Shown here: positions 3 through 59,862 of the stretch, piece by piece
Numbering within the stretch: the stretch's first letter is position 1
Layout: every line of letters begins with the position of its first letter
Origin: Candidatus Saccharimonadota bacterium
Lineage (GTDB): Bacteria; Patescibacteriota; Saccharimonadia; Saccharimonadales; UBA10212
Direction: 5' to 3'
DNA: 64,000 nucleotides
NCBI GenBank assembly: GCA_022841445.1
Contig: JALHRM010000003.1
Span: forward strand, 343 to 64,342
The notes under the pieces: generated by a model
Database searches by the model: none
Told to the model about the DNA's origin: nothing
What the model saw: only the letters and a program-made list of their open reading frames with translations
Program-made: the position numbers and the translations under genes

Positions 3-3000
3 TCGTCGACAACCAACGTTAATGTTGGCAGTACGATTGCCGGAACTACGACGCTACAGTCGGCCGGCGGTGTTATTGTTTCAGCACTCGCCACCGCAGA
101 TACGTCAACATACCTATGCCGAAATTCAACGAATCGAATAGCAACTTGTACGGCAGGTGCAAATACTCTCCAAGCAGCATATGATGCAGACGCCGATGGT
201 AGCGATAGTGTTATCGCTCTCACGACAGCTGATGATGGTCTTGTCATCCGCAATCCTAGTTCAGGGGGAAGTGACAGCACTTATAACCTAACTATCGATC
301 AGTTGTCGACTGGTGCTCGTGGTGGGCTAAGCATTCAATCCGCTGGAACAGGCAACCTGTTGCTTGTTACTGATACAACCGCTACAGCTCGCGATGTGCT
401 CGCTATTGCCGACGGGGGAGCTGCTACCTTTAGGAATCAGACTGATTCGACTTCTGCCTTTGGTATCCAAAACGCTGCCGGGACCTCTCTCCTCACTGCC
501 GATACTACTAATCTAGATATTGCTGTTAACGGTCGCCTTGCAGCGACCAAGTCAACTGCTATAAATCAGGACTGGACAAAGATCTCCGGCACCGCCGGCA
601 CCATCGGCGGCAACGGTACCGGCATTGATGGTATGCAAACAGCTGCAGTCTACAACGGTGCACTCTATTTCGGAATAGAAGTGACGGATGCGGCTGCGAT
701 CTACCGCTATGATGCCAACGGAGTATGGACGAGCGTTTCTGGCACTGCCGGCACAGTCGGTGGTGGAGCCACAACCGGTATTGATGGTATACGCGACATG
801 GTCGTTCACAATGGCCAGTTATTTGTTGGCACCGACAAAGCAAATGAAGCCGAAGTCTACCGTTACGACGGTGGCAGCAGTTGGACAAAGATCTCCGGCA
901 CCGCCGGCACCATTGGTGGCAACCCCACTGGCAGCATCAATCGCGCCAATACATTGATCAGTTACAACGGTTCACTGTATGTAGGAACAGAAGAAGCCGA
1001 CAGCGCCGAAGTCTACCGTTACGACGGTGGCAGCAGTTGGACAAAGATCTCCGGCACCGCCGGCACCATTGGTGGCAACCCCACCACACTTATCAATTCC
1101 GTAAAAAGCATGGCTGTGTATAGTGGCTCGCTCTACTTAGGAACCCAGGAATCAAACTCCGCCGAAGTCTACCGTTACGACGGTGGCAGCAGTTGGACAA
1201 AGATCTCCGGCACCGCCGGCACCATTGGTGGCAACCCCACCACTACCATTACGGCGGTGAGCGATCTTGCATCGCATAACGGCAATCTATATGCCGGTAC
1301 CAACAAGACCGACCAGGCCGAAGTCTACCGCTACGATAGCGGTACGACGTGGACTCGGGTCAGCCATACTACTGCCGGAACGATTGTTAGCGGTGGTACT
1401 TCAAGTGTGGATGCTGCCAATGAGTTAGAAGTCGTCAATGGTAGCCTTTACCTTGGAACGTATACGACCAACAGTCAGGGCGAAGCGTACCGCTATGACA
1501 ATGCCGTCGGAGCCTGGACAAAAATCTCTCAAACTACCGCTGGTACCGTTGCAGCGAGCGGGACTGCCAATATAGATGAGATTCAACGACTGGTTGGATT
1601 CGGTGGCTCGCTCTACGCTGGAAGTTTCGAAACAGATGGTGCAGAGGTATACCGTTATGGCGACAACACCCTCGAAGCCCGCTCCACCGAAACCCTCGGT
1701 ACCTTCAGCTTGTCTGGCACTGGTACTGCTTCATTCCAGAACTCTACTAACTCTACTATTGCATTCGATGTCCAAAATGCTGGCGGAGCATCACTATTCA
1801 ACATTGATTCCACCAATGCAGGCAACATTACCCTGCTTGGTGGTAATAGCGGAGAGACGAGTGCATGGCAGATCAATGCCAGTGGTCTGACCACAGCTCT
1901 CAGGGAAAGTTCAACGGTTACCGCCAATGGCTATGTATATATGTTAGGCGGAGTGAACGGTAGTAATGTGGGCGTCACGACCGTCTCCTACGCCAAAATA
2001 AATGCCAATGGCTCGATTGGCAGCTTTACTGCTACCAGCAGTCTGCCATCGGTTCGTACCGGGCACACTTCGGTAGTTGCCAACGGTTACATTTATGTAC
2101 TTGGTGGTCTGGACGCCGAAGCCGGTACCCCACAAGCAACTTCCTATTACGCCAAGATTAATACTGACGGCACCCTCGGTAGCTGGACAATTACGACCAG
2201 CCTTAGTGCAGCTACCGCTCACCATTCCAGTGTCGTCGCCAATGGCTATGTCTATGTCATCGGTGGTCGCAACACCGGCTCAACGCTCACCATATCCACC
2301 GTTTCGTATGCTAAGCTCAACGCCGACGGCACCATCGGTGCCTGGAGTGCCACCTCTAGCCTTGTTACTACTACCGGACTGGCCGCTGCCAGTATTGCTA
2401 ACGGCTACGTTTATATACTAGGTGGTCGTTCCGACACTGCGACTACTGGTGGCCGACAAAACGTCCAGTATGCTGCGCTCAACCCTAACGGTACTGTCGG
2501 AACTTGGACGGATGTTGCTAGTGCCTTGCCGGCTGCCCGAGCAGTACTGACATCAGCTGTTCAAAATGGCTACCTGTACGCCATCGGCGGACGCTTAAGC
2601 GGGACATCAAACACGACCGTCTATTACGCCCAACTTAATGCCAATGGGAGCTTTGGTAACTTTGCCACATCTGCCAATGCACTCCCCGAAGGCCGCGATG
2701 CCCACACAACTATTGCTGCCAATGGCTACCTCTATGCGCTGGGCGGTGAACTCAGTAACACAGAAGCCAGTACCATCTACTACACTTCCACCTCACGAGT
2801 AAGTATTGGCGGCAGTCTAGACTTAGTTGGATTGTCGGGTGAGAACTTGAGCGATGGCGGTGGTGGCAGTCTTACTGCTGGTGATACAGCGATTGTTGGT
2901 ACCTTGAACGTTCAGGAACAGGCTAATTTCTGGGATGCCGTATATGTGGCCAGCGACCTAAGCATCGGCAATAGCCTTGAAGTTACTGGACAGCTTCGCT

Positions 3001-19887: not shown

Positions 19888-20238
19888 TTAAGCCGATTTT
19901 TTTGGGGCAGGAGTTGCACCGAGCTTCTGTGATTCGGTTTTGGCGCCTTTTCTAGTCTTGGTAGCGGCTTTTTTACGAGCTTCCAGAGCATTGGCTGCGG
20001 CTTCGCGGCGGGCTTTGAACTTGTCGACGCGGCCTTCGATGTCGATCATTTTCTCTTGACCGGTGTAGAAGGGGTGCGAACTGCTGCTGATGTGTACTTT
20101 TACTAGCGGGTATTCTGTGCCATCGAGCTTGATAGTTTCGTCAGTTGCTACAGTAGAGCGCGTCAGAAACGTCGTATTGTCATTCAAATCTTGAAAAACA
20201 ACGTGACGGTAGTTGTTAGGGTGTAAATCTTTTTTCAT
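19888..20238 (-). CDS. rpmE: 50S ribosomal protein L31, type B (lacks the Zn-binding Cys), with a Lys/Ala-rich C-terminal extension.
   Basis: [15 protein letters not shown]...TRSTV...[36 protein letters not shown] matches L31. Confidence 0.9.
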
Positions 20239-20336
20239 AGTCGGTTTCCGATTATATCTGTTTTATGAAGTTTGGTCAACAAACCCAGAGACCTTATATT
20301 GCAATTGTATAGTTAATATGTTAAAATATTTGTGTA

Positions 20337-20960
20337 ATGTTGAGTATTTATCAGAATTTAGGTCGGGAAATCCCGATGACATCATCGCCATCGCCACATC
20401 AGGTTGGTCTTTTACGTTGGCGCGAAAAAGAACTCAGGCGTTTTAACGATGAAGATGAAGCACTACGTGATCTAGATGATCGACTTGAGGCATATAAGTT
20501 TAATAAACAAGGTGCGGAACTTGCGAGAATCATAGGTGAAAAGACTGCGGAACTTGCCGATTTTGCACTTGCGACAAGCCTAGATGTCGGCGAAATTAAC
20601 GATCCCCGTAGGATTGTGAATGTTAGCAGCAACGATCCCCGTTATGATGAGCGTTATATTATTACTGCATTAGACGAGAATCTGACACCATGTGCTCCTC
20701 GCACAGCCTCAAACTTTAGGGTTGCGCTTCAAGACAGGAGAATTGATACAGTTCCTTATCCTGGCGCTTTTATAGATGACCCGCGATTTAGTTTTACTAT
20801 TGGCGGTAGTATGCTCCCAGAGCGGTGGGAACCTGAAGGACTTGTCCAAATGGAAGATGTACTCGAGCTCTACAATGATGCGATAAAAGCTCTAGTACTT
20901 AGTGCGACTGACGGCAATCTTAATCAACAGATTTCGACAGCTTCAGGTAGTGTCACATAG
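20337..20960 (+). CDS. Hypothetical cytoplasmic protein (207 aa), acidic, with no recognised domain.
   Basis: Clean ORF immediately upstream of, and co-directional with, the 581-aa HExxH protein. Confidence 0.45.
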   Translation: MLSIYQNLGREIPMTSSPSPHQVGLLRWREKELRRFNDEDEALRDLDDRLEAYKFNKQGAELARIIGEKTAELADFALATSLDVGEINDPRRIVNVSSNDPRYDERYIITALDENLTPCAPRTASNFRVALQDRRIDTVPYPGAFIDDPRFSFTIGGSMLPERWEPEGLVQMEDVLELYNDAIKALVLSATDGNLNQQISTASGSVT

Positions 20961-21035
20961 AAGAAGTAATTTAACGTAAAATTGACCAAAATAAAAACTT
21001 ATGCTAAAGTAGTAGTGTTAAATAAACACAAAAAT

Positions 21036-51181: not shown

Positions 51182-51252
51182 AGAAGTTTATTATAGAGCG
51201 AAGAGGTGTAAATTTGCCATCTATTGCCGAGGCGGATACACTAGTATGCATT

Positions 51253-52134
51253 ATGGCTACAAAACGAAAGTCCGACACCAAATCCGAAAAAACCAAGAAG
51301 AAAAAAAATATCGAAGTGGCGGTTGCCGAAGCGAAAGCGACTGTGAAAAAAACCAATAAGCGTCAGCCAATGACCAGCAAGCGCTTTAATCTACTTATTG
51401 CTCTGCTGCATTTTGTGCAAGGACTTATCATCCTGGTCATGGGCGGAATCGACCGAGCACTTGTACCAATCACGACATTGTTTGCAACCAAGGACGAATT
51501 GGCTTCTCAGGCAGCTGGCGAAACTGTTTTGGCGAGCGCTGCCGAACACTTGTTTGATCTACCGCTATCTGTTGCTATTGCTTCATTCTTTTTCGTTGCC
51601 GGGCTGACTCACGTGTTACTGGCGACTCGATACCGCACTAAATATGAGGCAGAAAGAGCAGTAGGTTTTAATGTTACTCGTTCAGTTGGTTACGCATTCG
51701 TAGCTGGCCTGATGGCAGTAACGGTAGGTCTCGCAGTAGGGGTATGGAGCTTGCCTGTAATCATTCTTATTCTTGGAGCTGTCGTGGCCGGCAATGCTTT
51801 TCATTTACTTATGGATACGCATAACCGCGGTTCTCGGCCGACAAAGTGGTGGCCCTATTGGTTGTCAATCAAAAATGGTCTATTAGCATGGGTAGTAATT
51901 GGGCTGTATATTCTAGCTGCGATTGTTCACGGTAACGGTTTGCCAATGTACGCGTATGTTGCCGCGGGGGTGACCTTCCTTTTCTTTGCTCTGTTTGCCG
52001 CTATAAGCTACAAACATCATAAAAAGCAGGGCAAATGGGCATCGTTCTTGTATGTCGACCGCGCTTTTACGTATCTAAACCTTATCGCAGTCGCCGTGCT
52101 GGGCTGGTTGTTGTTTGCACTAGCTATTGTTTAA
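51253..52134 (+). CDS. Hypothetical polytopic membrane protein with a Lys-rich N-terminus.
   Basis: Six or more hydrophobic helices. I used ATG 51253 (MATKRKSD); the ORF opens at 51214. Confidence 0.45.
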   Translation: MATKRKSDTKSEKTKKKKNIEVAVAEAKATVKKTNKRQPMTSKRFNLLIALLHFVQGLIILVMGGIDRALVPITTLFATKDELASQAAGETVLASAAEHLFDLPLSVAIASFFFVAGLTHVLLATRYRTKYEAERAVGFNVTRSVGYAFVAGLMAVTVGLAVGVWSLPVIILILGAVVAGNAFHLLMDTHNRGSRPTKWWPYWLSIKNGLLAWVVIGLYILAAIVHGNGLPMYAYVAAGVTFLFFALFAAISYKHHKKQGKWASFLYVDRAFTYLNLIAVAVLGWLLFALAIV

Positions 52135-53416
52135 TCGCACTCCATTGAAACATCCGCTGAGCGAAGTAGTTGTTATAGAAAAGTTGGTTCATGGCGGTCA
52201 AGGTATGGGACGGCTGGCAGACGGGCGAGTGGTATTTGTTTGGAACGCTTTGCCGGGCGAAACGGTCAGGGCAAATATATATAAACGCAAGCGCGATTAC
52301 GTAGAATCGATAGCAGTCGAAATTATTGAAGCATCGCCGGAGCGTATTGCCCCCCGTGAGGCGGACAGTTTTTTAGCCACCAGCCCCTGGCAGATGATGA
52401 GCTTTGCTACTGAAAATAGCTACAAAAAAGCGATTATTGCGGAGACGTTTGAGCGTGAAAAAATAACGCTGCCGGATTTTGCATTAGTTTCAGACGGCAT
52501 GGAGTACGGCTACCGTAACAAAATGGAGTACAGTTTTTTTGGCGATGATAATGGGCTGCATCTGGCACTTCATCACCGTGGATCGCACCGCAAAATGATT
52601 GTCAAAGGCAGTGCTTTGGCACAAGCAGCAATTGATCAAGCTGGCAACAAACTCATTGAACTATTAAACGGTCTGAATGTGCGGGCAGCCGATTTGAAAT
52701 CTGTTATTATCCGCTGCAGCCAAGATAAAAAGGTCGCGGCCAGCCTGTTTGTTAAAACAGAGACATTTGCTGATATGAGCCTCGTATCTTCATTTATGAA
52801 TGGCATGGATGTGTACTATTCGAACCCGAAAAGTCCAGCCTCGGTCGCTACCAAAGTACTGCAATCAGTCGGGTCTACCGTACTAACCGATAATCTTACG
52901 GGTAAAGGTTTCGATTATAGCGTGAATTCGTTTTTTCAAGGAAACATCCCAGTTTTTGAGTTAGCGCTAGCCAAAATAAAACAACACACTGACCAGGGCG
53001 ATATTACCGACATGTTTTGTGGTGTAGGGGTTATCGGACTAAGTATTGGTTCACGCAAAGTAAGCCTGATAGAATCTGATCCTGCGAATGCAGTAATGCT
53101 GCGTGGTAATGCCAAACATAGCAAGCTGGACACACAGGTAATAATTGCTCCTGCCGAAAAAGCTACTGAGCACATTGATCCAGATAAGATTTTAATTGTC
53201 GATCCGCCCCGGGCAGGGCTCCATAGTGATGTAGTGGCTGCTATCAACAGCGCGTTACCGCCAAAAGTTGCGTACCTCAGCTGCAATCCGTCCACCCAGG
53301 CGAGAGACCTGGCACTGCTGCATAAAAATTATCGAGTGACATTTTTTGAAGGCTATAACTTTTTTCCGCGGACTCCCCACATTGAATCGCTTGCTATACT
53401 TAAGCGGATTGCATAA
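52127..53416 (+). CDS. rlmD: TRAM-domain RNA (uracil-5)-methyltransferase of the RlmD/RumA/TrmA family.
   Basis: N-terminal TRAM (VVIEKLVHGGQGMGRL...VFVWNALPGETV) and C-terminal SAM MTase motifs (FCGVGVIGL, DPPRAGL). TTG start overlapping the upstream gene. Confidence 0.75.
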   Translation: MFNRTPLKHPLSEVVVIEKLVHGGQGMGRLADGRVVFVWNALPGETVRANIYKRKRDYVESIAVEIIEASPERIAPREADSFLATSPWQMMSFATENSYKKAIIAETFEREKITLPDFALVSDGMEYGYRNKMEYSFFGDDNGLHLALHHRGSHRKMIVKGSALAQAAIDQAGNKLIELLNGLNVRAADLKSVIIRCSQDKKVAASLFVKTETFADMSLVSSFMNGMDVYYSNPKSPASVATKVLQSVGSTVLTDNLTGKGFDYSVNSFFQGNIPVFELALAKIKQHTDQGDITDMFCGVGVIGLSIGSRKVSLIESDPANAVMLRGNAKHSKLDTQVIIAPAEKATEHIDPDKILIVDPPRAGLHSDVVAAINSALPPKVAYLSCNPSTQARDLALLHKNYRVTFFEGYNFFPRTPHIESLAILKRIA

Positions 53417-53456
53417 ATAAGCCCGGGGTGGTTTACTGATTGCTATAGGAGTTACA

Positions 53457-54170
53457 ATGCCGCAATCAGAATTAAATGAGTACATTCAAAAAGCCCGCGA
53501 ACGGGGTATTGATGATGCCACAATCAGAAACAATCTTACCAGCGCCGGTTGGCCAGACGCCGACGTAAACACCGCACTGCTTGGTGATGTGCCTGTTCCT
53601 GTACCGCCGCATCACGGTGGACATCATGCGCAGACCCATCCATCAGCGATGCCGCATGGCGGATTTGTACAACATAATCCACAGCAGCCGATAGCGGTTG
53701 TTCAAAACCTCAGCGTACGTGGCTTTGAGTACAGTATTATGTTCATCACTCTGTTAATCAGTGCTTTTTCTGTCGGCGGCTTATTGCATGCCCTGGTTGA
53801 TACGATGTTTAGCGGAAACGAAACATACGCCTATAGCGACAGTTCCGGTGGATTTCAGACTATCGCGATCACGCTTTTGATCGTTAGCTTCCCCATCTTT
53901 GCGTACATGTTTATAAGACTCAAAAAGGCTGAACTGCGTGATCCTTCCATTCGTCGCGATCCTTCGCGTCGAAAGTGGACACAGTTCACCCAACTGGCTT
54001 GTTTTATTGTTGGATTGATTTACGCAGTAACCTTTGTCTATTTCATTATCGAGGGGGATGATGAGACATCACTTGTAAAGCAAATGTTACACACGGCCAT
54101 TACACTCATCATAGTCGGCGGCATTTTTGCTTACTACTGGCGTGAGGATCATCGTGCTGAACGATCCTAA
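53457..54170 (+). CDS. Hypothetical membrane protein with one N-terminal GWP helical repeat, a His/Pro-rich linker and 4 TM. It is a paralogue of the 54719 gene.
   Basis: ELNEYIQKARERGIDDATIRNNLTSAGWPDADV, then PVPVPPHHGGHHAQTHP, then TM helices. Confidence 0.5.
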   Translation: MPQSELNEYIQKARERGIDDATIRNNLTSAGWPDADVNTALLGDVPVPVPPHHGGHHAQTHPSAMPHGGFVQHNPQQPIAVVQNLSVRGFEYSIMFITLLISAFSVGGLLHALVDTMFSGNETYAYSDSSGGFQTIAITLLIVSFPIFAYMFIRLKKAELRDPSIRRDPSRRKWTQFTQLACFIVGLIYAVTFVYFIIEGDDETSLVKQMLHTAITLIIVGGIFAYYWREDHRAERS

Positions 54171-54711
54171 AGCCTCGTCGGCGAGTATTCGGAAATACTA
54201 TATCGTATTTGGAGCACTGGTGTTGTTTATTGTGGTATTGATAGGCTTTTCGTTATTGCAAAGCCGTGGAAAAATACTTGACAATGAAATAGCAAATCGC
54301 TTGGCTGATGTATGGTACGACATCGAATATAAACAGTACGGTAGTGGCGGCTTACCGGTGTCTCTAAATAAGGCAACTAATAGAAACACTAAAGACCTTA
54401 CATACTATCGACTTGACGAAAGAACGTACATGCTTTGTGCTGAATTCGAAACAAAGAGCGGCACCACAAAACCAGACGCGCTGAATGACCGGCAGCGCGC
54501 GCTAATAGAAGATGCCGGCCAATCACTAACAGCTACGACTTACCATTCTTCAAAAAGCGATAACTACGGTTATGTGGACATTTATGTTCGCCAAGAAGGC
54601 CGCAATTGCTACATAAACGAGCTCGAAATTTTACCGGATGACTCGCTCAAGCTCAATAACTATGAGAACTATGAGTCCGAGGATGCGAATTTACCATCAT
54701 CAGAAATATAG
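54127..54711 (+). CDS. Hypothetical secreted or membrane-anchored protein (about 180 aa).
   Basis: ORF overlapping the upstream gene end. The start is uncertain (TTG 54127 or GTG 54142/54154). A TM anchor is followed by a soluble domain. Confidence 0.4.
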   Translation: MLTTGVRIIVLNDPKASSASIRKYYIVFGALVLFIVVLIGFSLLQSRGKILDNEIANRLADVWYDIEYKQYGSGGLPVSLNKATNRNTKDLTYYRLDERTYMLCAEFETKSGTTKPDALNDRQRALIEDAGQSLTATTYHSSKSDNYGYVDIYVRQEGRNCYINELEILPDDSLKLNNYENYESEDANLPSSEI

Positions 54712-54718
54712 TTAAGCA

Positions 54719-55426
54719 ATGGAAATAGATCAGGCGCTTGTAGATTTCGTACGTGAGGCTAAAGTCTATGGTTTATCGAACGAAGAGATAGTTGGCGAGT
54801 TAGTACAAAGTGGGTGGCCGGCACCGTATCTGCAAGTATTAAACACGGATTCTGATTTACTGAATTACATTGGTGAAGCTCGTGCTCAGGGGGTCAGTGA
54901 AGAATCGATTGCCCAAGAACTTGTAGGGCAGGGTTGGCCAACCGATTACCTGCGACTGGCATTTATGCTTCATCCGCCGCTCTTTGTAGCTACCCCAAAA
55001 CCTCAACCGAACCCTCAATCTCAGCGGCAACATCCTCCCGAGCAACCGCAACGTCCAAGTGTTCAGACGCTTCCTGTTCAACGCAAACCCAGCAACTACA
55101 CCTATGGTTTGAGTGTAGTAAGCCTTGCATTGCTGCTACCGGCAGCTGTAACGACCGTGTTGTTTTTGCGAGCAATGGTGCTGAGTTGGCTCGGCACACC
55201 AACGGCCTCGGAACTGCTTGATTTAATCGTTTTGCCAATGGTATTAAGCGGTATATTTGTGCCGGTAGGTTTGTTTGCTTCGGCCACCGCCAGTCATCGG
55301 CTCGTTGCACTTGCAACGAAAGATCTAGGGAAGACTATTTATGTAACATTCGCGGTGTATCAGACGTTAACAGTTTTGATCGCGAGCGGCTGGTTGGTAT
55401 TTTTGATTGGTCGGTTTGTGGGCTAG
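54719..55426 (+). CDS. Hypothetical membrane protein with two N-terminal GWP helical repeats, a Pro/Gln-rich linker and 4 TM.
   Basis: ALVDFVREAKVYGLSNEEIVGELVQSGWPAPYL and LLNYIGEARAQGVSEESIAQELVGQGWPTDYL. Confidence 0.5.
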   Translation: MEIDQALVDFVREAKVYGLSNEEIVGELVQSGWPAPYLQVLNTDSDLLNYIGEARAQGVSEESIAQELVGQGWPTDYLRLAFMLHPPLFVATPKPQPNPQSQRQHPPEQPQRPSVQTLPVQRKPSNYTYGLSVVSLALLLPAAVTTVLFLRAMVLSWLGTPTASELLDLIVLPMVLSGIFVPVGLFASATASHRLVALATKDLGKTIYVTFAVYQTLTVLIASGWLVFLIGRFVG

Positions 55427-55438
55427 AATGGTGAGGCT

Positions 55439-56158
55439 ATGAAACTGCATCGCTTCTACACTGGGCAGCTCCATGACAAGCGCGGACATACCGAGCTCAC
55501 TGACCACATATGGGTGCATGACCAGCACTTACTTAATCAGTGGTTAAAAGTATTGCGCTTTCGTGAAGGCGACGAATTATCCTTGTTTGATGGAAGCGGG
55601 ATTGAAAAGTTGTATAAGGTTGCGGTTATCGAACCGCTTTCCGTAAAGCTTGAACTGGTGACTGAGCTTCATAAAAGCCTGCCAACCCGGCATCGCTATC
55701 TGCTATGGTCACTACTAAAGGCTGACAAAAATGATCTGGTTATACAAAAAGCTACTGAGATTGGCATTACCAATTTCGTACCCTTAGTTGCAGCCCGTAC
55801 CGAAAAAACCGGTTTTGATGAGCAGAGGGCGATGCGCATTGCTATTGAAGCGGCTGAACAGTGTGGGCGGGTTGACATCCCGCATATCCGCGAACCGATT
55901 TTGGTTGCCGAAGCCATAAAAGAGTACACATCCAATATTCAATTATTAGTAGCCGAACAGGGCAATTTGTCGATGACCCAAGACCAAAGTTCCGAGGAAG
56001 AACATCCGATAGGAGTTTTGATCGGGCCAGAAGGTGGATGGACCGACGAAGAACTACAGCTGTTCAGCGATAACAAACTTGCTCACATTGGACTTGGCGC
56101 CTACACCTTACGCGCCGAAACCGCCGCCATCACCGCTGCGGCGCAACTGCTACAATAA
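55439..56158 (+). CDS. rsmE: 16S rRNA (uracil1498-N3)-methyltransferase RsmE.
   Basis: MKLHRFYTG N-terminus and GPEGGWTDEE SPOUT motif. Confidence 0.85.
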   Translation: MKLHRFYTGQLHDKRGHTELTDHIWVHDQHLLNQWLKVLRFREGDELSLFDGSGIEKLYKVAVIEPLSVKLELVTELHKSLPTRHRYLLWSLLKADKNDLVIQKATEIGITNFVPLVAARTEKTGFDEQRAMRIAIEAAEQCGRVDIPHIREPILVAEAIKEYTSNIQLLVAEQGNLSMTQDQSSEEEHPIGVLIGPEGGWTDEELQLFSDNKLAHIGLGAYTLRAETAAITAAAQLLQ

Positions 56159-56165
56159 ACAAATA

Positions 56166-56987
56166 ATGATTGAAGCATCCCTATACATACTCATCTGGTC
56201 GGCAATGCTTGTTTTTGGCTACATTGTCTATCGATACTTATTCAAAGCAAAAAAACTAGAAACAGGCGTCATTAAAATTACTACGGGATCAAGCCAAACA
56301 TCATACTCATATATTATCGGAGACAATCTATCGTGGCCTGAATATGGCAGAGTTTTTTCGGGTATAGAGGTATTATTACCTAAAAGCATTCCCCATATAT
56401 ATTTAGATTCACACCACAATGATTCCAATACCAACCCCAAGCTTCTCATTGACAAGCCTGAAAAACTTTCACTAGAAGGTGATTTTAATAAGCATTTTCA
56501 AGCCTTTGCGAACAGCAAGTATTCAACCCTTGCTCTGAGTATACTGAGTCCGGACACACTACAAACACTAATTGACTGTAACCGTTTTGATATTGAACTT
56601 TACGACAATAAACTACGATTAATAACTGGATACAAAGTCCAATCAGACCCAGAAATCAAAAATTCGCTTATAAAATCCTCCCATGCTGTATTACTAGAAA
56701 TAGCGCATCGATTAAAAAGCCTGAATGTATCAAAACAGGATGTTGTCGCCAGTAGGATACCGGTAATTGAGTATGATGTAGTAAAAGTTGGTAAGCGTTC
56801 CTATGTTTCTGGTAGCGGTCTAAAAGTTGCTGTCTTTACATTCACACTTGGTGTAGTAATGTGGGTATGGGGTATTAGTATGTTGATATCCGGTGAAGAT
56901 ATCTTAATGGTTGCGACAGCGATAGGTGGGGGGCTTATAATCTTCCCCATAAGCTACCTTTTTATCCGTACTTACATCAGGTTCTGA
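56166..56987 (+). CDS. AT-rich (about 35% GC) hypothetical membrane protein with one N-terminal TM, a ~200-aa soluble domain and two C-terminal TM.
   Basis: Clean 273-codon ORF whose composition is markedly lower than its neighbours at about 48-50% GC. I used ATG 56166, directly after the rsmE stop; the ORF opens at 56034. Confidence 0.5.
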   Translation: MIEASLYILIWSAMLVFGYIVYRYLFKAKKLETGVIKITTGSSQTSYSYIIGDNLSWPEYGRVFSGIEVLLPKSIPHIYLDSHHNDSNTNPKLLIDKPEKLSLEGDFNKHFQAFANSKYSTLALSILSPDTLQTLIDCNRFDIELYDNKLRLITGYKVQSDPEIKNSLIKSSHAVLLEIAHRLKSLNVSKQDVVASRIPVIEYDVVKVGKRSYVSGSGLKVAVFTFTLGVVMWVWGISMLISGEDILMVATAIGGGLIIFPISYLFIRTYIRF

Positions 56988-56994
56988 TTGTCAT

Positions 56995-57009
56995 ATGTGC
57001 GTCGCACAT
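56995..57009. promoter_or_regulatory. 15-bp perfect palindrome ATGTGCG-T-CGCACAT between the AT-rich membrane gene and the Cas4-like nuclease gene.
   Basis: Read directly from the sequence. Its statistical weight is low, since about four 7-1-7 palindromes are expected by chance in 64 kb. Confidence 0.2.
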
Positions 57010-57026
57010 CCTGCTACAATAGGCGG

Positions 57027-57827
57027 ATGGGTAGTTACGGGTATCAACGCACACAGCCATACACGCCTGGTCAGAAAGCGTCGTTCAAAATCAGTCGTAG
57101 CAAGATTGATCTGTTTATGCAATGCCCGCGGTGTTTCTGGCTGGATGCACGGCTAAAAATTAAGCGGCCGTCGAGTCCGCCATTTCGCATTAACAGTGCT
57201 ATCGACGAGCTGTTCAAAAAAGAATTCGATATCCACCGCGAAGCCCAGACGAAGCATCCACTCAGTGAAGCATTCGGGCTTGATCTTGTGCCGTTCAAAC
57301 ATGAAAAAATGGATGAATGGCGTGACGCCCTGCGACGTGGAGTGACGTATCTTCACCCCCAGACTAATTTATTGATTACCGGCGGCGTCGACGATGTATG
57401 GGTTGATCACAAAACAGGCGAAATTGTTATTGTTGACTACAAAGCTACCTCAAAAAATGGTGAGGTGAGCCTCGACGCCGATTGGCAAGTTACGTACAAA
57501 CGCCAGATCGAAGTCTACCAGTGGCTGTTCAGGCGCAATGACTTTAAGGTTTCAGATACTGGTTATTTCGTATACACTAACGGCCGTCTGGACGCTGATG
57601 GATTTTACGATAAGTTGGAATTTAAGACGAAAATTATTCCCTATAAAGGCAATGATAGCTGGATCGAGCCGTCGGTTATGAAACTGAAAGCCTGCTTAGA
57701 AGGCGACATGCCCGAAGTCGGCACTGCCGCCATGGGAGGCGTGTGTGAACATTGTTCATACGCAAAGGCCAGAACAATGCTGAGCCTCGAAGCAATCCAA
57801 TCTCACCGCCATAACAAAAAACGGTAG
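57027..57827 (+). CDS. Cas4/DUF83-like PD-(D/E)XK nuclease with four Fe-S-cluster Cys residues.
   Basis: N-terminal S..IDLFMQCPRCFWL, nuclease core GGVDDVWVDHKTGEIVIVDYKAT and QIEVYQWLF, and C-terminal C-x15-C-x2-C (CLEG...VCEHC). The start is either TTG 56988, immediately after the upstream stop, or ATG 57027. Confidence 0.7.
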   Translation: MGSYGYQRTQPYTPGQKASFKISRSKIDLFMQCPRCFWLDARLKIKRPSSPPFRINSAIDELFKKEFDIHREAQTKHPLSEAFGLDLVPFKHEKMDEWRDALRRGVTYLHPQTNLLITGGVDDVWVDHKTGEIVIVDYKATSKNGEVSLDADWQVTYKRQIEVYQWLFRRNDFKVSDTGYFVYTNGRLDADGFYDKLEFKTKIIPYKGNDSWIEPSVMKLKACLEGDMPEVGTAAMGGVCEHCSYAKARTMLSLEAIQSHRHNKKR

Positions 57828-57829
57828 CG

Positions 57830-58483
57830 CTACTCAATCACAGCTTCAAGCGGTTGGTCGTCGGTGCGAAAGTTCAGTATTCGCCAGTCATCGGGAGTTT
57901 TCTCTAAGATTACTCGAATGTAATAAGTATCATCTTCGTTACCGGGTAGTTCATATATGACCACTGCTCGAACGGTGCCATCATCAGACTTTTGAATAGT
58001 ACTTAACGTGCTTTCGGTCGGACTGCCAAGCAGCGGCCCGACTTGTTCAAATATTAGCTGCAACTCGTCTTGGCTAGTTTCATTCTTAAACTGCTCTGCT
58101 ACCAGGGTGTAGGCGGTTTTGGCGTCTTGATCAACCATGGCTGTAATCATGCGGTCGCTGACCGCAACCGCGTCTGGCAGGCTTGCTTCTTGCATCCGTA
58201 GGTACACGAGTGTGGCAGCTACGATAGCTATGCTAATCACGACCAACATGATACCGATAAGTAGTATTTTTTTACCGGAAGATTTTTTATTATGAGGCGA
58301 AATTGGAGCTGCAGTATTGGTAGGATAAGGTGGTTCCGGCAAGCTGCTGTAGGCCGGTTGTTGTGGAATTTGGTTAGTCGGTTTTTGTACTTGTTGATTA
58401 GCAGGGGGTTGCCATGTGGGTGTAAACCACTGGTTGGGGTCGGGTTGTCGGCGCTCCGGCCGATACGGTTCTCGTGGCTCCAT
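57830..58483 (-). CDS. Hypothetical membrane-anchored protein with a Pro/Gln-rich N-terminus, one TM and a ~120-aa extracytoplasmic domain.
   Basis: ORF on the minus strand with the TM helix ILLIGIMLVVISIAIVAATLVYL. Confidence 0.45.
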   Translation of the reverse strand: MEPREPYRPERRQPDPNQWFTPTWQPPANQQVQKPTNQIPQQPAYSSLPEPPYPTNTAAPISPHNKKSSGKKILLIGIMLVVISIAIVAATLVYLRMQEASLPDAVAVSDRMITAMVDQDAKTAYTLVAEQFKNETSQDELQLIFEQVGPLLGSPTESTLSTIQKSDDGTVRAVVIYELPGNEDDTYYIRVILEKTPDDWRILNFRTDDQPLEAVIE

Positions 58484-58554
58484 AATTACAATTAAGTATA
58501 AGCGCTATCAAACTTGCCTGCAATCCGCCTATTATTTTCTGTATACTATAGGCA

Positions 58555-59862
58555 ATGATTGACTTGCAGTTTGTCCGTGACAATCCAGAGTTGGTGAAAG
58601 AAAAATCCGCTCAAAAAGGGTACACAGTCGATATCGACCGCTTACTTGAGCTTGATAAAAAACGTCGTGAGTTAGTTGGTATAATCGAAGAAAAGCGTGC
58701 TCATCGCAATGAGCTTTCGTCCGCGGCGAAGGGTTCCAGGCCAACACCGCAGCAGATTGAACAAGGCAAAAAACTCAAAGATGACATAGCCAAATTTGAA
58801 GTCGATCTTCAGCCCGTTGAAGCAGAACTTGTTTTACTGCACAAAAACGTGCCAAACATGCCACTGGATGGTGTTCCAATCGGCGCTAGCGAAGATGAAA
58901 ATGTTGAGATAAAAGTCGTTGGAGAAGTTCCACAGTTTGATTTTCAACCAAAAAGCCATGCCGAACTTGGTGAGCTCAACGGATGGATAGATAAAGAACG
59001 AGCCGCAAAAGTAGCCGGTGCTCGTTTTGCCTACCTAAAGGGCGACCTGGTCAAGTTGCAATGGGCGCTGATGCAGTTTGGCATCGACGTGCTGACTGAC
59101 GAAGACACCCTCAAGAAAATTGCGGAAGATGCTGGAATTAGAGGTGTGAGCACCAAACCATTTGTTCCGGTGTTGCCGCCGCTGATGATCCAAACTGAAC
59201 TATACGATGCCATGGATCGTTTGCAGCCAAGTGATGACCGTTACAAAATTGAAGGCGAAGAACTGTGGCTGCAAGGCAGCGCCGAGCATGTGCTTGGTTC
59301 GATGCATGCCAACGAAATATTCGACGAAGCTGAACTGCCTATTCGCTACGTCGGCTACGCCACTAGTTTTCGCCGCGAAGCGGGAACATACGGCAAGGAC
59401 ACCGAGGGCATCATTCGCATGCATCAATTCGATAAACTGGAAATGGAAAGCTTTACTACCAAAGAAAATTCGCTTAAGGAACATCTATTTATGGTTGCTA
59501 TACAAGAATATTTGGTCGCTCAGCTAGGGCTGCCATATCACGTGCTAGAAAAATGCACTGCTGATATCGGTAAGCCAAATGCCAAAGGTGTTGATATCGA
59601 AGTATGGATGGCCTCTCAGGGCAAATACCGCGAAACACATACTGCCGACTACATGACTGACTACCAAGCACGCCGACTCAAGACAAGAGTTCGACGAGCC
59701 AGCGGAGACATTGAACTTGTTCATACCAATGATGCAACTGCTTTCGCACAGCGGCCGCTTATCGCTATTTTGGAGAATAACCAAACCCTAGAGGGAAAGG
59801 TAGTAGTCCCCGAAGTATTACAAAAATATTTAGGAGGCAAACAAGAGTTAGGTCAAATATAA
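58555..59862 (+). CDS. serS: Seryl-tRNA synthetase.
   Basis: MIDLQFVRDNPELVKEKSAQKG N-terminal coiled coil and class II motifs (FRREAGTYGKDTEGIIRMHQF). Confidence 0.93.
   Translation: MIDLQFVRDNPELVKEKSAQKGYTVDIDRLLELDKKRRELVGIIEEKRAHRNELSSAAKGSRPTPQQIEQGKKLKDDIAKFEVDLQPVEAELVLLHKNVPNMPLDGVPIGASEDENVEIKVVGEVPQFDFQPKSHAELGELNGWIDKERAAKVAGARFAYLKGDLVKLQWALMQFGIDVLTDEDTLKKIAEDAGIRGVSTKPFVPVLPPLMIQTELYDAMDRLQPSDDRYKIEGEELWLQGSAEHVLGSMHANEIFDEAELPIRYVGYATSFRREAGTYGKDTEGIIRMHQFDKLEMESFTTKENSLKEHLFMVAIQEYLVAQLGLPYHVLEKCTADIGKPNAKGVDIEVWMASQGKYRETHTADYMTDYQARRLKTRVRRASGDIELVHTNDATAFAQRPLIAILENNQTLEGKVVVPEVLQKYLGGKQELGQI

What the first reader, a model, noticed from the sequence alone, without database searches (positions are those of the whole stretch)
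56166..57827. AT-rich (~35% GC) membrane gene abutting a Cas4-like Fe-S PD-(D/E)XK nuclease: candidate horizontally acquired two-gene defence or DNA-processing module
The membrane gene is about 13-15 points lower in GC than its surroundings. Sampled lines give 32-42% against about 50%. Its stop at 56985-87 touches the next ORF, which opens at TTG 56988; an ATG lies at 57027. That ORF encodes a nuclease with the Cas4/DUF83 signatures: CPRCFWL, a D...D-Y-K core, QxxxY and a C-terminal C-x15-C-x2-C. A 15-bp perfect palindrome lies in the junction. No CRISPR array or cas genes are present, so the nuclease is standalone. A membrane protein paired with a nuclease is a recurrent layout in phage-defence and abortive-infection systems.
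Basis: partly seen in the sequence, partly recalled or inferred. Interest (0 to 1): 0.6.

Follow-up and report, generated by a model that had tools for sequence, protein, structure and literature searches.

The report
Core nuclease with inserted membrane gene
In this Saccharibacteria genome a conserved, vertically inherited Cas4-like DNA nuclease sits at its usual place before the seryl-tRNA synthetase gene, and an unrelated accessory membrane-protein gene lies just upstream of it, so the two do not form an imported defence module.

Summary
The nuclease (57027-57827) belongs to a highly conserved Saccharibacteria gene family. More than 8000 homologues were found, and the nearest are 60-91% identical. 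In 64 of 65 evaluable species genomes serS lies within 3.5 kb downstream. The gene has normal GC and its own conserved extended -10 promoter 6-9 nt before the ATG. Most genomes have the nuclease without any membrane gene.

The membrane gene (56166-56987) is an accessory, fast-evolving, remote DUF3137-like protein. Its GC is 38.1% against a window mean of 46.9%, so the drop is about 9 points, not 13-15. It lies in an 853-bp stretch bracketed by an 11-bp perfect direct repeat, CTGCTACAATA. That repeat is the nuclease promoter, and its first copy also covers the last codons and stop of rsmE. The closest relative carries unrelated genes in this slot.

One thing remains unexplained. This membrane subfamily lies directly upstream of the nuclease in 13 of 15 contexts. 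That may be inherited synteny or a real functional link. No known defence-system model matches the membrane protein, and the nuclease scores only weakly against Cas4 models. The palindrome is at chance level. Overall interest is low to moderate.

The parts
55439..56158 (+). rsmE, a 16S rRNA methyltransferase gene and the upstream anchor gene. Its last codons, CTG CTA CAA TAA, carry promoter copy 1.
   Evidence: Pfam Methyltrans_RNA 4.2e-38 plus PUA_4. In 11 of 19 RsmE-nuclease genomes rsmE ends ...CTG/TTG CTA CAA TA[AG], and that sequence is the nuclease promoter.
56147..56157 (+). Direct-repeat copy 1, CTGCTACAATA. It contains an extended -10 element (TGCTACAAT, 56148-56156), overlaps the rsmE stop (56156-56158) and ends 9 nt before the membrane-gene ATG.
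   Evidence: The 11-mer occurs exactly twice in 64 kb against 0.02 expected and was found as family D7. The promoter reading rests on the TGnTAnAAT consensus and its spacing and is an inference.
56137..57010 (.). Variable slot. This segment has no DNA similarity to the closest relative, L001, which carries unrelated 54-aa and 245-aa genes here.
   Evidence: blastn of window against L001 breaks at 56136 and resumes at 57011. hhalign of the family profile against the L001 245-aa protein gives probability 0.3%, and BLASTP finds nothing.
56166..56987 (+). Accessory membrane-protein gene (273 aa). It has an N-terminal TM helix, a conserved alpha/beta domain of about 185 aa (predicted cytoplasmic by the positive-inside rule) and a C-terminal TM hairpin. 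It is a remote member of the DUF3137 superfamily.
   Evidence: The AF2 model has pLDDT 91.8 and pTM 0.83, with helices 2-26, 216-242 and 246-272. The family comprises 2977 cluster representatives at E<=1e-3. 19 of 38 relatives hit PF11335 weakly, but the window protein itself has no Pfam hit. GC is 38.1% and GC3 34.8%.
56995..57009 (.). 15-bp perfect palindrome inside the variable segment, 8 nt after the membrane-gene stop. It is probably incidental.
   Evidence: 10 such palindromes occur in the window against 4.6 +/- 2.1 expected, and it is absent from all relatives. The RNA fold has z -0.03.
57011..57021 (+). Direct-repeat copy 2, CTGCTACAATA. This is the nuclease's own extended -10 promoter (TGCTACAAT, 57012-57020), 6 nt before ATG 57027, which predicts a leaderless or near-leaderless mRNA.
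   Evidence: 44 of 79 loci have a strict TGnTAnnAT, and 40 of those 44 lie 6-10 nt from the start; many others have near-matches, whatever the upstream gene. Homology to L001 resumes exactly here.
57027..57827 (+). Stand-alone Cas4/RecB-like PD-(D/E)XK nuclease (266 aa). The catalytic residues are D122/D123, D137-Y-K139 and Q160...Y164. The invariant cysteines are C33-x2-C36 and C240-x2-C243.
   Evidence: PDDEXK_1 scores 1.8e-11. An alignment of 34 orthologues has 69% mean column identity, and the listed residues are invariant. The AF2 model (pLDDT 86) matches RecE 3h4r, Cas4 SSO0001 4ic1, MGME1, lambda exonuclease and AddB.
58555..59862 (+). serS, the downstream synteny anchor of the nuclease locus.
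   Evidence: Pfam tRNA-synt_2b and Seryl_tRNA_N. serS lies within 3.5 kb downstream of the nuclease in 64 of 65 evaluable species genomes.

Best explanation
These are two independent genes that happen to be neighbours.

(1) The nuclease. The 57027-57827 gene is the local orthologue of a single-copy, vertically inherited gene of a large group of (mostly environmental) Saccharibacteria. It encodes a stand-alone RecB/Cas4-like PD-(D/E)XK nuclease with a four-cysteine metal or Fe-S site. It is transcribed from its own extended -10 promoter, placed so that the mRNA begins at or next to the ATG. From the fold and the intact catalytic residues I infer a Mg/Mn-dependent enzyme that processes DNA ends or single-stranded DNA, probably as a 5'-3' exonuclease. 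I infer that it serves general DNA metabolism (recombination, repair or turnover of DNA) in a reduced genome.

(2) The membrane gene. The 56166-56987 gene is an accessory, fast-evolving gene for a membrane-anchored protein. Its conserved domain, predicted to be cytoplasmic, belongs remotely to the DUF3137 superfamily. It occupies a hypervariable slot at the very tight rsmE/nuclease junction. In many relatives the last codons of rsmE are themselves the nuclease promoter. In this genome 853 bp lie between two perfect copies of that 11-bp promoter. Copy 1 now precedes the membrane gene and copy 2 still serves the nuclease.

Shown: the conservation, synteny, promoter motif, repeat, boundaries of the variable segment and composition. 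Inferred: the enzymatic activity, the promoter function, the membrane topology, and whether the membrane gene was inserted here or is an old resident deleted elsewhere.
For: Nuclease as a conserved resident gene.
- More than 8000 homologues were found, and the nearest are 60-91% identical.
- 346 species-representative genomes encode a relative, and nearly all of the best 80 are labelled Saccharibacteria.
- serS lies within 3.5 kb downstream in 64 of 65 loci and directly next in 31.
- The upstream neighbour varies: RsmE 18, TrmA 10, membrane family 4-5, others about 35.
- Its GC is 47.9%, normal for the window.
- It has its own promoter: 44 of 79 loci have a strict TGnTAnnAT, and 40 of those lie 6-10 nt from the ATG.
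- Its fold is RecE/Cas4/MGME1/lambda-exo/AddB-like, and the catalytic residues are invariant.

Membrane gene as accessory.
- Only 5 of 80 species loci have it upstream, and 4 of 80 have a paralogue downstream.
- It is scattered over the nuclease tree.
- Orthologues are about 40% identical where the nucleases are about 62% identical.
- The sister contig L001, whose nuclease is 91% identical, has unrelated genes in the slot.

Repeat and context.
- The 11-bp direct repeat lies exactly at the slot borders, with 2 copies against 0.02 expected.
- rsmE ends in this promoter in 11 of 19 RsmE-nuclease genomes.
- There are no defence hits for the membrane protein or the neighbours.
- Published phylogenomics found solo Cas4-family genes over-represented in small-genome CPR bacteria and mainly vertically inherited (PMC5704561).
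Against: - The upstream-type membrane subfamily is directly 5' of the nuclease in 13 of 15 evaluable contexts. In L090 the two genes overlap by 4 nt. A second subfamily sits directly 3' of the nuclease. This is more regular than a random hotspot would give and could reflect a functional link.
- More distant nuclease homologues (44-54% identity) on IMG/VR contigs lie in defence islands, so a defence role for the family cannot be dismissed.
- The nuclease is not universal in the phylum. The cultured Southlakia epibionticum ML1 has no stand-alone PF12705 protein at serS (PMC10633639 Table S2).
- No experiment bears on the activity or on the promoter.
Confidence: 0.55

Rival explanations
1. The two genes form a functional pair. 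The DUF3137-like protein would be a lineage-specific membrane partner that tethers, sequesters or regulates the Cas4-like nuclease at the cytoplasmic face of the membrane. It could act, for example, on DNA entering through the competence machinery, or as a sensor-effector pair. It would be an optional add-on to a nuclease that also works alone.
For: The upstream-type subfamily is adjacent to the nuclease in 13 of 15 contexts, although the gene further upstream differs (RsmE, TrmA or others). Gaps run from -4 to 61 nt. A paralogous subfamily lies directly downstream of the same nuclease in about 10 loci. The conserved domain is predicted to be cytoplasmic by the positive-inside rule applied to the sequence. 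Saccharibacteria are naturally competent (PMC10633639).
Against: Most species have the nuclease without either paralogue. The nuclease has its own promoter between the two genes. There are two exceptions, L097 and L098. DUF3137-like relatives outside Saccharibacteria are not near a nuclease (L091 and L092; most loci). The pair never moves together to another locus. Simple inheritance of gene order at a well-conserved locus, with many losses, explains the adjacency equally well.
Confidence: 0.2
2. The nuclease is a stand-alone, lineage-fixed anti-foreign-DNA (defence) nuclease rather than a repair enzyme, and the membrane gene is unrelated to it.
For: Homologues at 44-54% identity lie in defence islands. 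L179 reads EcoRI-like MTase, GmrSD/HNH REase, nuclease, ThsB, ThsA, ThsB. L175 reads type IIG MTase, Ppl-like protein, nuclease, trypsin-like protease. The nuclease matches phrog_31195 at 5.8e-16. Saccharibacteria mostly lack CRISPR-Cas, and solo Cas4 has been proposed to have defence or repair roles (PMC5704561).
Against: The nuclease shows slow evolution (69% mean column identity), a fixed housekeeping locus, one copy per locus and no variable-island context. That pattern is unlike typical defence genes. The PADLOC Cas4 hits are weak. Association with a defence island is seen for only a few distant homologues.
Confidence: 0.2
3. One reading: both genes arrived together as a horizontally acquired membrane-plus-nuclease defence or abortive-infection module.
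For: The membrane gene is low in GC, the two genes are adjacent, and the nuclease resembles Cas4.
Against: The nuclease has normal GC and lies in its ancestral position with its ancestral promoter. The break in homology with the sister contig covers the membrane gene only. There is no integrase, tRNA or transposase at the borders. No PADLOC model matches the membrane protein.
Confidence: 0.03

Closest known systems
Solo Cas4-family / PF12705 (PDDEXK_1) RecB-like nucleases of small-genome bacteria (Hudaiberdiev et al. 2017, PMC5704561)
   Same: It is a stand-alone PD-(D/E)XK nuclease with conserved cysteines, encoded outside CRISPR-cas. It is found in CPR bacteria and inherited mainly vertically. 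Its function is uncharacterised, with repair or defence proposed.
   Different: This orthologous group has a CxxC...CxxC cysteine arrangement, a fixed position upstream of serS and a promoter embedded in the end of rsmE. None of these was described in that paper's text as read here.
Cas4 SSO0001 (PDB 4ic1) and CRISPR-associated Cas4 (TIGR00372 / PF01930)
   Same: It shares the RecB-like fold (Foldseek E 6.2e-5, probability 1.00), the D...D/ExK and QxxxY motifs, and cysteines at both ends of the domain.
   Different: It falls below the family thresholds (24.3 bits against 65; no PF01930 hit). There is no cas1, cas2 or CRISPR array. The canonical C...CxxC-x5-C spacing (from my own knowledge of SSO0001 and AddB) is replaced, and the residue 5 positions after the CxxC is a conserved Arg.
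RecE (3h4r), lambda exonuclease, human MGME1, AddB nuclease domain, Exo5
   Same: These are the best structural matches to the AF2 model (E 5e-5 to 1e-2, TM 0.3-0.54). All are enzymes that resect DNA ends or process single-stranded DNA.
   Different: Sequence identity is only 8-16%. No partner annealing protein or helicase is encoded next to the nuclease. RecE, lambda exonuclease and MGME1 lack the cysteine cluster (own knowledge).
DUF3137 (PF11335) membrane proteins, often next to LemA (e.g. SEML1_0901/0902 in S. epibionticum, PMC10633639 Table S2)
   Same: The membrane protein links through significant profile hits to proteins that carry PF11335. It shares the general build of TM anchor(s) plus an alpha/beta domain.
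   Different: The window protein has no direct Pfam hit. It is shorter (273 aa against 330-390 aa) and has a C-terminal TM hairpin. No LemA gene is nearby. Its subfamily is tied to the nuclease locus.
TtfA, mycobacterial trehalose-monomycolate transport factor (PDB 6t84)
   Same: It is the only PDB fold match with appreciable probability (0.95). It is also an N-terminally membrane-anchored protein.
   Different: The match is weak (E 9e-3, TM 0.25/0.36, 7% identity). It is a lead only and not evidence of shared function.

Membership tests
Cas4 (CRISPR-associated; TIGR00372 / PF01930 DUF83) | Score above the curated family threshold | tested here: not met
   TIGR00372 gives 24.3 bits against a cut-off of 65. 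There is no PF01930 hit at E<=1. PADLOC Cas4 models reach 6.6e-8 at best.
Cas4 (CRISPR-associated; TIGR00372 / PF01930 DUF83) | PD-(D/E)XK catalytic motifs and QxxxY | tested here: met
   D122/D123, D137-Y138-K139, Q160 and Y164 are invariant in 34 orthologues.
Cas4 (CRISPR-associated; TIGR00372 / PF01930 DUF83) | Four-cysteine Fe-S module with one N-terminal Cys and C-x2-C-x5-C at the C-terminus | tested here: not met
   Four cysteines are invariant, but they are arranged C33-x2-C36 ... C240-x2-C243. C223 is only nearly invariant, and the position 5 residues after the CxxC is Arg. Whether an Fe-S cluster or Zn is bound cannot be told from sequence.
Cas4 (CRISPR-associated; TIGR00372 / PF01930 DUF83) | Linkage to cas1/cas2 or a CRISPR array | tested here: not met
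   The window has no array-like tandem repeat and no Rfam hit. The neighbours in about 90 loci are rsmE, trmA, serS, hpf and secA.
PDDEXK_1 (PF12705) / solo Cas4-like nucleases | Pfam gathering score; stand-alone and vertically inherited | tested here: met
   The score is 44.9 bits against 22, covering 242 of 247 profile positions. Synteny is conserved.
DUF3137 (PF11335) | Match to the Pfam model | tested here: inconclusive
   The window protein has no hit at E<=1. 19 of 38 aligned relatives hit weakly, the best at 9.9e-6. The family profile finds P0206, which carries PF11335, at 3.1e-20.
Known membrane-plus-nuclease defence systems (PADLOC-DB 2.0) | Both components match models of one system | tested here: not met
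   The membrane protein matches 0 families, and the nuclease matches only weak Cas4 models. Six neighbouring proteins match 0 families. DefenseFinder was not available.
Mobile genomic islet / horizontally acquired cassette | Presence or absence among close relatives, atypical composition, defined borders, mobility genes | tested here: inconclusive
   For the membrane gene alone: it is absent from the sister L001 and from the rest of its nuclease clade. Its GC offset is -8.8 against -2.1 +/- 2.2 in 12 other genomes, though L007 is at -7.4. An 11-bp direct repeat marks the borders. There are no mobility genes, and deletion between the repeats in other lineages would give the same picture. For the nuclease the feature is not met.

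The most novel reading that the evidence does not exclude
A Saccharibacteria-specific branch of the DUF3137 superfamily could be a dedicated membrane partner of the conserved Cas4-like nuclease. It would hold or control the nuclease at the inner face of the membrane, for instance to process DNA taken up by these naturally competent, nucleotide-scavenging epibionts, or to trigger DNA degradation on infection. That would be the first functional context for DUF3137 and a new kind of solo-Cas4 accessory.
Probability: 0.15. Interest if true: 0.6.

Novelty: new member of a known kind. Interest (0 to 1): 0.3.

Why it matters
As found, the region is ordinary: a conserved solo Cas4-like nuclease of a reduced-genome bacterium, plus one of many fast-evolving membrane proteins of unknown function. 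Three by-products are modestly useful.

First, the nuclease family is a well-defined, highly conserved and completely uncharacterised enzyme of many Saccharibacteria. It has an unusual CxxC...CxxC site and relatives in defence islands, which makes it a reasonable target for biochemistry.

Second, the rsmE stop codon doubling as a leaderless-type promoter shows how compact these genomes are, and it gives a testable transcription start.

Third, the near-constant placement of two DUF3137-like subfamilies on either side of the nuclease is an unexplained regularity. It could give DUF3137 its first functional lead.

Tried and rejected
- Sequence searches of both proteins and both family profiles against PDB sequences gave only chance hits.
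- The membrane protein has no hits in PHROGs, Pfam, NCBIfam or PADLOC.
- The L001 245-aa slot gene was tested as a diverged homologue and rejected.
- The palindrome was tested as an operator or terminator and rejected: it is at chance frequency, not conserved, and its fold has z -0.03.
- Promoter and terminator consensus scans were at or below shuffle expectation.
- A look-up of the source record through P0121 found nothing.
- I looked for Tn-seq essentiality of an orthologue in Southlakia epibionticum, but that organism lacks the stand-alone nuclease, so there are no data.
- A co-divergence test of membrane protein against nuclease was uninformative overall (rho 0.04). Only the L006/L008/L090 clade is clearly vertical.
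- Composition alone does not prove transfer. The membrane gene has lower GC3 than the nuclease in all 13 genomes, and L007 deviates almost as much as the window.
- Literature on DUF3137 is essentially nil: two incidental mentions.
Full report
**What is in the sequence**

The window has a mean GC of 46.9%. Its gene content around the finding is heliorhodopsin, trmA-like, DUF5671, two unknown genes, rsmE, the two genes of the finding, a convergent 217-aa gene, serS, hpf and secA. The closest database matches are all Saccharibacteria (TM7, Patescibacteria) metagenome-assembled genomes.

The first ORF runs from ATG 56166 to TGA 56985-56987 (273 aa). The longer GTG 56034 version overlaps rsmE and is not supported. 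The second ORF can be opened at TTG 56988 or at ATG 57027 and ends at 57827.

**Checking the observation: composition**

The membrane gene has 38.1% GC. It is the lowest-GC 822-bp stretch in the 64 kb (z -3.8) and the lowest of 61 ORF-genes (z -3.3). Its GC3 is 34.8%, second lowest (z -2.4). Its codon-usage distance from the window average is ordinary (z +0.7). The drop is therefore real but is about 9 points, not 13-15.

The nuclease has 47.9% GC, which is normal. Its GC3 of about 52% is above the window mean of 43.9%, and this exaggerates the contrast between the two genes.

**Checking the observation: motifs**

The motifs quoted for the nuclease are present. In 34 orthologues the invariant residues include C33 and C36 (the CPRC), D122, D123, D137-Y138-K139, Q160, Y164, C240 and C243. 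C223 is only nearly invariant, and the spacing is C-x16-C-x2-C.

The protein passes Pfam PDDEXK_1 (1.8e-11; 44.9 bits against 22). It does not reach Cas4 family thresholds: TIGR00372 gives 24.3 bits against 65, there is no PF01930 hit, and the best PADLOC Cas4 model gives 6.6e-8.

**Checking the observation: the palindrome**

The 15-bp palindrome is at 56995-57009. Ten such 7+1+7 palindromes occur in the window against 4.6 +/- 2.1 expected. It is absent from every relative, and its hairpin is no more stable than shuffled sequence (z -0.03).

**The nuclease is a conserved resident gene**

The best matches are 60-91% identical and come from Saccharibacteria. A scan of one genome per species found 346 genomes encoding a relative.

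In the 80 best loci, serS lies within 3.5 kb downstream in 64 of the 65 that have enough sequence, and it is the very next gene in 31. hpf and secA usually follow. The upstream neighbour varies: rsmE in 18, trmA in 10, the membrane family in 4-5, and heliorhodopsin, HAD-like or other genes in the rest. Independent contigs found by exact protein look-up show the same order.

Many genomes read rsmE-nuclease-serS with nothing in between, for example L014-L017, L027, L029, L036, L061, L076, L077, L085 and L086.

The family is not universal in the phylum. The cultured Southlakia epibionticum ML1 has no stand-alone PF12705 protein upstream of its serS (PMC10633639, Table S2).

**The nuclease has its own promoter**

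Aligning the DNA upstream of the start in 79 loci shows a strict extended -10 element, TGnTAnnAT (most often TGCTACAAT), in 44 of them. In 40 of those 44 it lies 6-10 nt before the ATG. Most of the remaining loci have near-matches. The element is present whatever gene lies upstream.

In the window the element is TGCTACAAT at 57012-57020, 6 nt before ATG 57027. This fixes the start at the ATG, as do the homologue N-termini. It also predicts a leaderless or nearly leaderless transcript. That prediction rests on the usual spacing between a -10 element and the transcription start, and it has not been measured.

In 11 of 19 genomes where rsmE directly precedes the nuclease, rsmE ends ...CTG CTA CAA TA(A/G). 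The last Gln codon and the stop codon of rsmE are then the -10 hexamer of the nuclease.

**The membrane gene is the variable part**

DNA comparison with the closest relative, L001 (nuclease 91% identical), aligns window 51362-56136 and 57011-58615. It leaves 56137-57010 with no counterpart. L001 has 1230 bp in that slot, encoding 54-aa and 245-aa proteins. These are unrelated to the window protein (BLASTP nothing; hhalign probability 0.3%) and are partly low in GC as well. L001 in turn has an 897-bp insertion between the 217-aa gene and serS, which encodes a distant paralogue of the membrane protein.

The window slot is bracketed by an 11-bp perfect direct repeat, CTGCTACAATA, at 56147-56157 and 57011-57021. 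These are the only two copies in 64 kb, against 0.02 expected. Copy 1 is the end of rsmE plus the promoter and is now 9 nt before the membrane-gene ATG. Copy 2 is the nuclease promoter.

The arrangement is what one expects if 853 bp were placed into the compact rsmE/nuclease junction with duplication of the promoter. It is equally what one expects if the recipient junction and a donor both carried this conserved promoter. Recombination between the two copies would delete the gene cleanly, so the repeat does not tell the direction of the event. No such repeat flanks the gene in the other genomes that have it.

**What the membrane protein is**

A single-sequence search found only 10 relatives. 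The profile of those found 212 in the indexed database and 2977 cluster representatives in the exhaustive search: 95 at E<=1e-30 and 1892 at E<=1e-10.

The more distant relatives are 300-390-aa proteins that include Microbacteriaceae proteins. 19 of 38 aligned members hit Pfam DUF3137 weakly, while the window protein itself has no Pfam, NCBIfam, PADLOC or PHROGs hit.

The AlphaFold model is confident (pLDDT 91.8, pTM 0.83). It shows an N-terminal helix (2-26), an alpha/beta domain with long strands and a long helix (about 30-215), and two C-terminal helices (216-242 and 246-272). Lys and Arg cluster after the first helix, before the second and after the third. By the positive-inside rule the conserved domain should therefore be cytoplasmic; this is an inference. 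The conserved residues of the family are all present, so the gene is intact.

Fold searches were limited to the PDB and viral libraries. The only hit of note is the mycobacterial TtfA (E 9e-3, TM 0.25/0.36), which is too weak to carry a functional claim. Literature on DUF3137 is essentially absent. In S. epibionticum a DUF3137 protein lies next to LemA.

**How the two genes relate**

The membrane family around this locus splits into two subfamilies.

The first is the 'upstream type', 197-290 aa, to which the window gene belongs. It lies directly 5' of the nuclease in 13 of 15 contexts that can be evaluated: the window, L006, L007, L008, L026, L045, L060, L066, L089, L090, L093, L096 and L100. 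Gaps run from -4 to 61 nt. In L097 one gene intervenes, and in L098 no nuclease lies within about 1 kb.

The second is the 'downstream type', about 280-330 aa. It lies between the nuclease and serS in about ten loci. L007 has three copies near the nuclease.

Relatives outside Saccharibacteria are not near such a nuclease.

Among species representatives only 5 of 80 loci have the upstream type and 4 of 80 the downstream type. These loci are scattered over the nuclease tree, apart from one small clade (L060, L008, L090, L006) where the two trees agree.

The pair has never been seen away from the serS locus. The membrane family is absent from 2.9 million viral contigs.

The simplest reading is that these genes arose and duplicated at this locus and have been inherited and lost there. 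Adjacency would then be a by-product of a very stable gene order. A functional link cannot be excluded, and I give it about 0.2.

**Acquired or ancestral in this genome**

Three points favour acquisition. The window is the only member of its nuclease clade (the window with L001, L004, L005, L009-L011 and L013) that has the upstream-type gene. Its GC offset of -8.8 points is about 3 SD from the -2.1 +/- 2.2 seen in 12 other genomes. The border repeat is perfect.

Three points count against treating that as proof. The gene has lower GC3 than the nuclease in all 13 genomes. L007 deviates almost as much, at -7.4. No donor closer than about 43% identity exists.

I leave this at roughly even odds. 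It does not affect the main conclusion.

**What the nuclease probably does**

Its model (pLDDT 86) matches RecE, Cas4 SSO0001, MGME1, lambda exonuclease, AddB and Exo5, and all catalytic residues are intact. A metal-dependent nuclease that processes DNA ends or single-stranded DNA is therefore the best-supported activity. The four invariant cysteines form a CxxC...CxxC site that differs from the canonical Cas4/AddB spacing. Whether it binds Fe-S or zinc cannot be told here.

Its slow evolution (69% mean column identity), single fixed locus and strong promoter fit a general role in DNA metabolism. This agrees with the published picture of solo Cas4-family genes in small-genome bacteria (PMC5704561).

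One caution applies. Homologues at 44-54% identity on seven IMG/VR contigs lie in defence-island contexts. In L179 the order is an EcoRI-like methylase, a GmrSD/HNH restriction enzyme, the nuclease, then ThsB-ThsA-ThsB. In L175 the order is a type IIG methylase, a Ppl-like protein, the nuclease, then a trypsin-like protease. The nuclease also matches a phage family of unknown function (phrog_31195, 5.8e-16). A defence role for the wider family, or even for this orthologue, therefore remains a live rival at about 0.2.

**Verdict**

The interpretation as an imported two-gene defence module is not borne out.

The nuclease is a conserved, vertically inherited, stand-alone Cas4-like enzyme. This kind of gene has already been noted in CPR bacteria. 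The membrane gene is a separate accessory member of a large uncharacterised superfamily, sitting in a hypervariable slot.

I rate the novelty as a new member of a known kind, and the interest as low to moderate at 0.3. What interest there is rests on three things: the unexplained regular placement of DUF3137-like genes around the nuclease, the promoter-in-stop-codon arrangement with its perfect duplication, and the defence-island relatives of the nuclease.

Noticed in passing
window 57012-57020 and 56148-56156; loci L001-L090 upstream of the nuclease start: A conserved extended -10 element (TGnTAnAAT, mostly TGCTACAAT) lies 6-9 nt before the nuclease ATG in 44 of 79 loci, with near-matches in many more. 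This implies a leaderless-type mRNA. In 11 of 19 rsmE-nuclease genomes the -10 hexamer is formed by the last Gln codon and the stop codon of rsmE. Three other window genes (starts near 20337, 28006 and 47702) show the same element 5-9 nt before their start.
   Followed up: partly
window 56147-56157 and 57011-57021: An 11-bp perfect direct repeat, CTGCTACAATA, occurs only twice in 64 kb (0.02 expected). The copies lie exactly at the borders of the segment that has no homology to the sister contig. It could be a target or promoter duplication on insertion, or a substrate for precise deletion.
   Followed up: yes
L001 4755-5984 and 7584-8480: The closest relative has unrelated 54-aa and 245-aa genes (the latter 40% GC) in the rsmE/nuclease slot. 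It also has a separate 897-bp insertion, absent from the window, that encodes a DUF3137-like paralogue between the 217-aa gene and serS. Two variable slots therefore flank the nuclease.
   Followed up: partly
L179 2690-7751; L175 3-7033; L173 2012-5714 (IMG/VR contigs): Nuclease homologues at 44-54% identity lie inside defence-island-like gene sets. L179 has an EcoRI-type methylase, a GmrSD/HNH restriction enzyme, the nuclease and a ThsB-ThsA(Macro)-ThsB Thoeris set. L175 has a type IIG methylase, a Ppl-like 948-aa protein, the nuclease and a trypsin-like protease. L173 has an SNF2 helicase next to the nuclease.
   Followed up: partly
L007 1784-2773, 4139-4954, 5649-6767: One contig carries three DUF3137-like paralogues within 5 kb around the nuclease, which suggests local duplication of this family.
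   Followed up: no
window 20337-20960: This is another compositional outlier. The 207-aa ORF has the lowest GC3 in the window (32.9%), a high codon-usage distance, and a TGTTAAAAT element 9 nt before its ATG. The 20211-21032 stretch is the second lowest-GC 822-bp window (40.3%).
   Followed up: no
window 51214-52134: A heliorhodopsin gene (Pfam 2.6e-43) lies a few genes upstream. It recurs near the nuclease locus in many Saccharibacteria contigs.
   Followed up: no
window 769-1336: A 156-bp tandem repeat of about 3 copies (75-86% matches) sits in a higher-GC stretch (52-53%) at the start of the window. It is probably a repeat within a coding sequence.
   Followed up: no
window 1-64000: No Rfam family, including tRNA, reached its gathering score anywhere in the 64 kb.
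   Followed up: no
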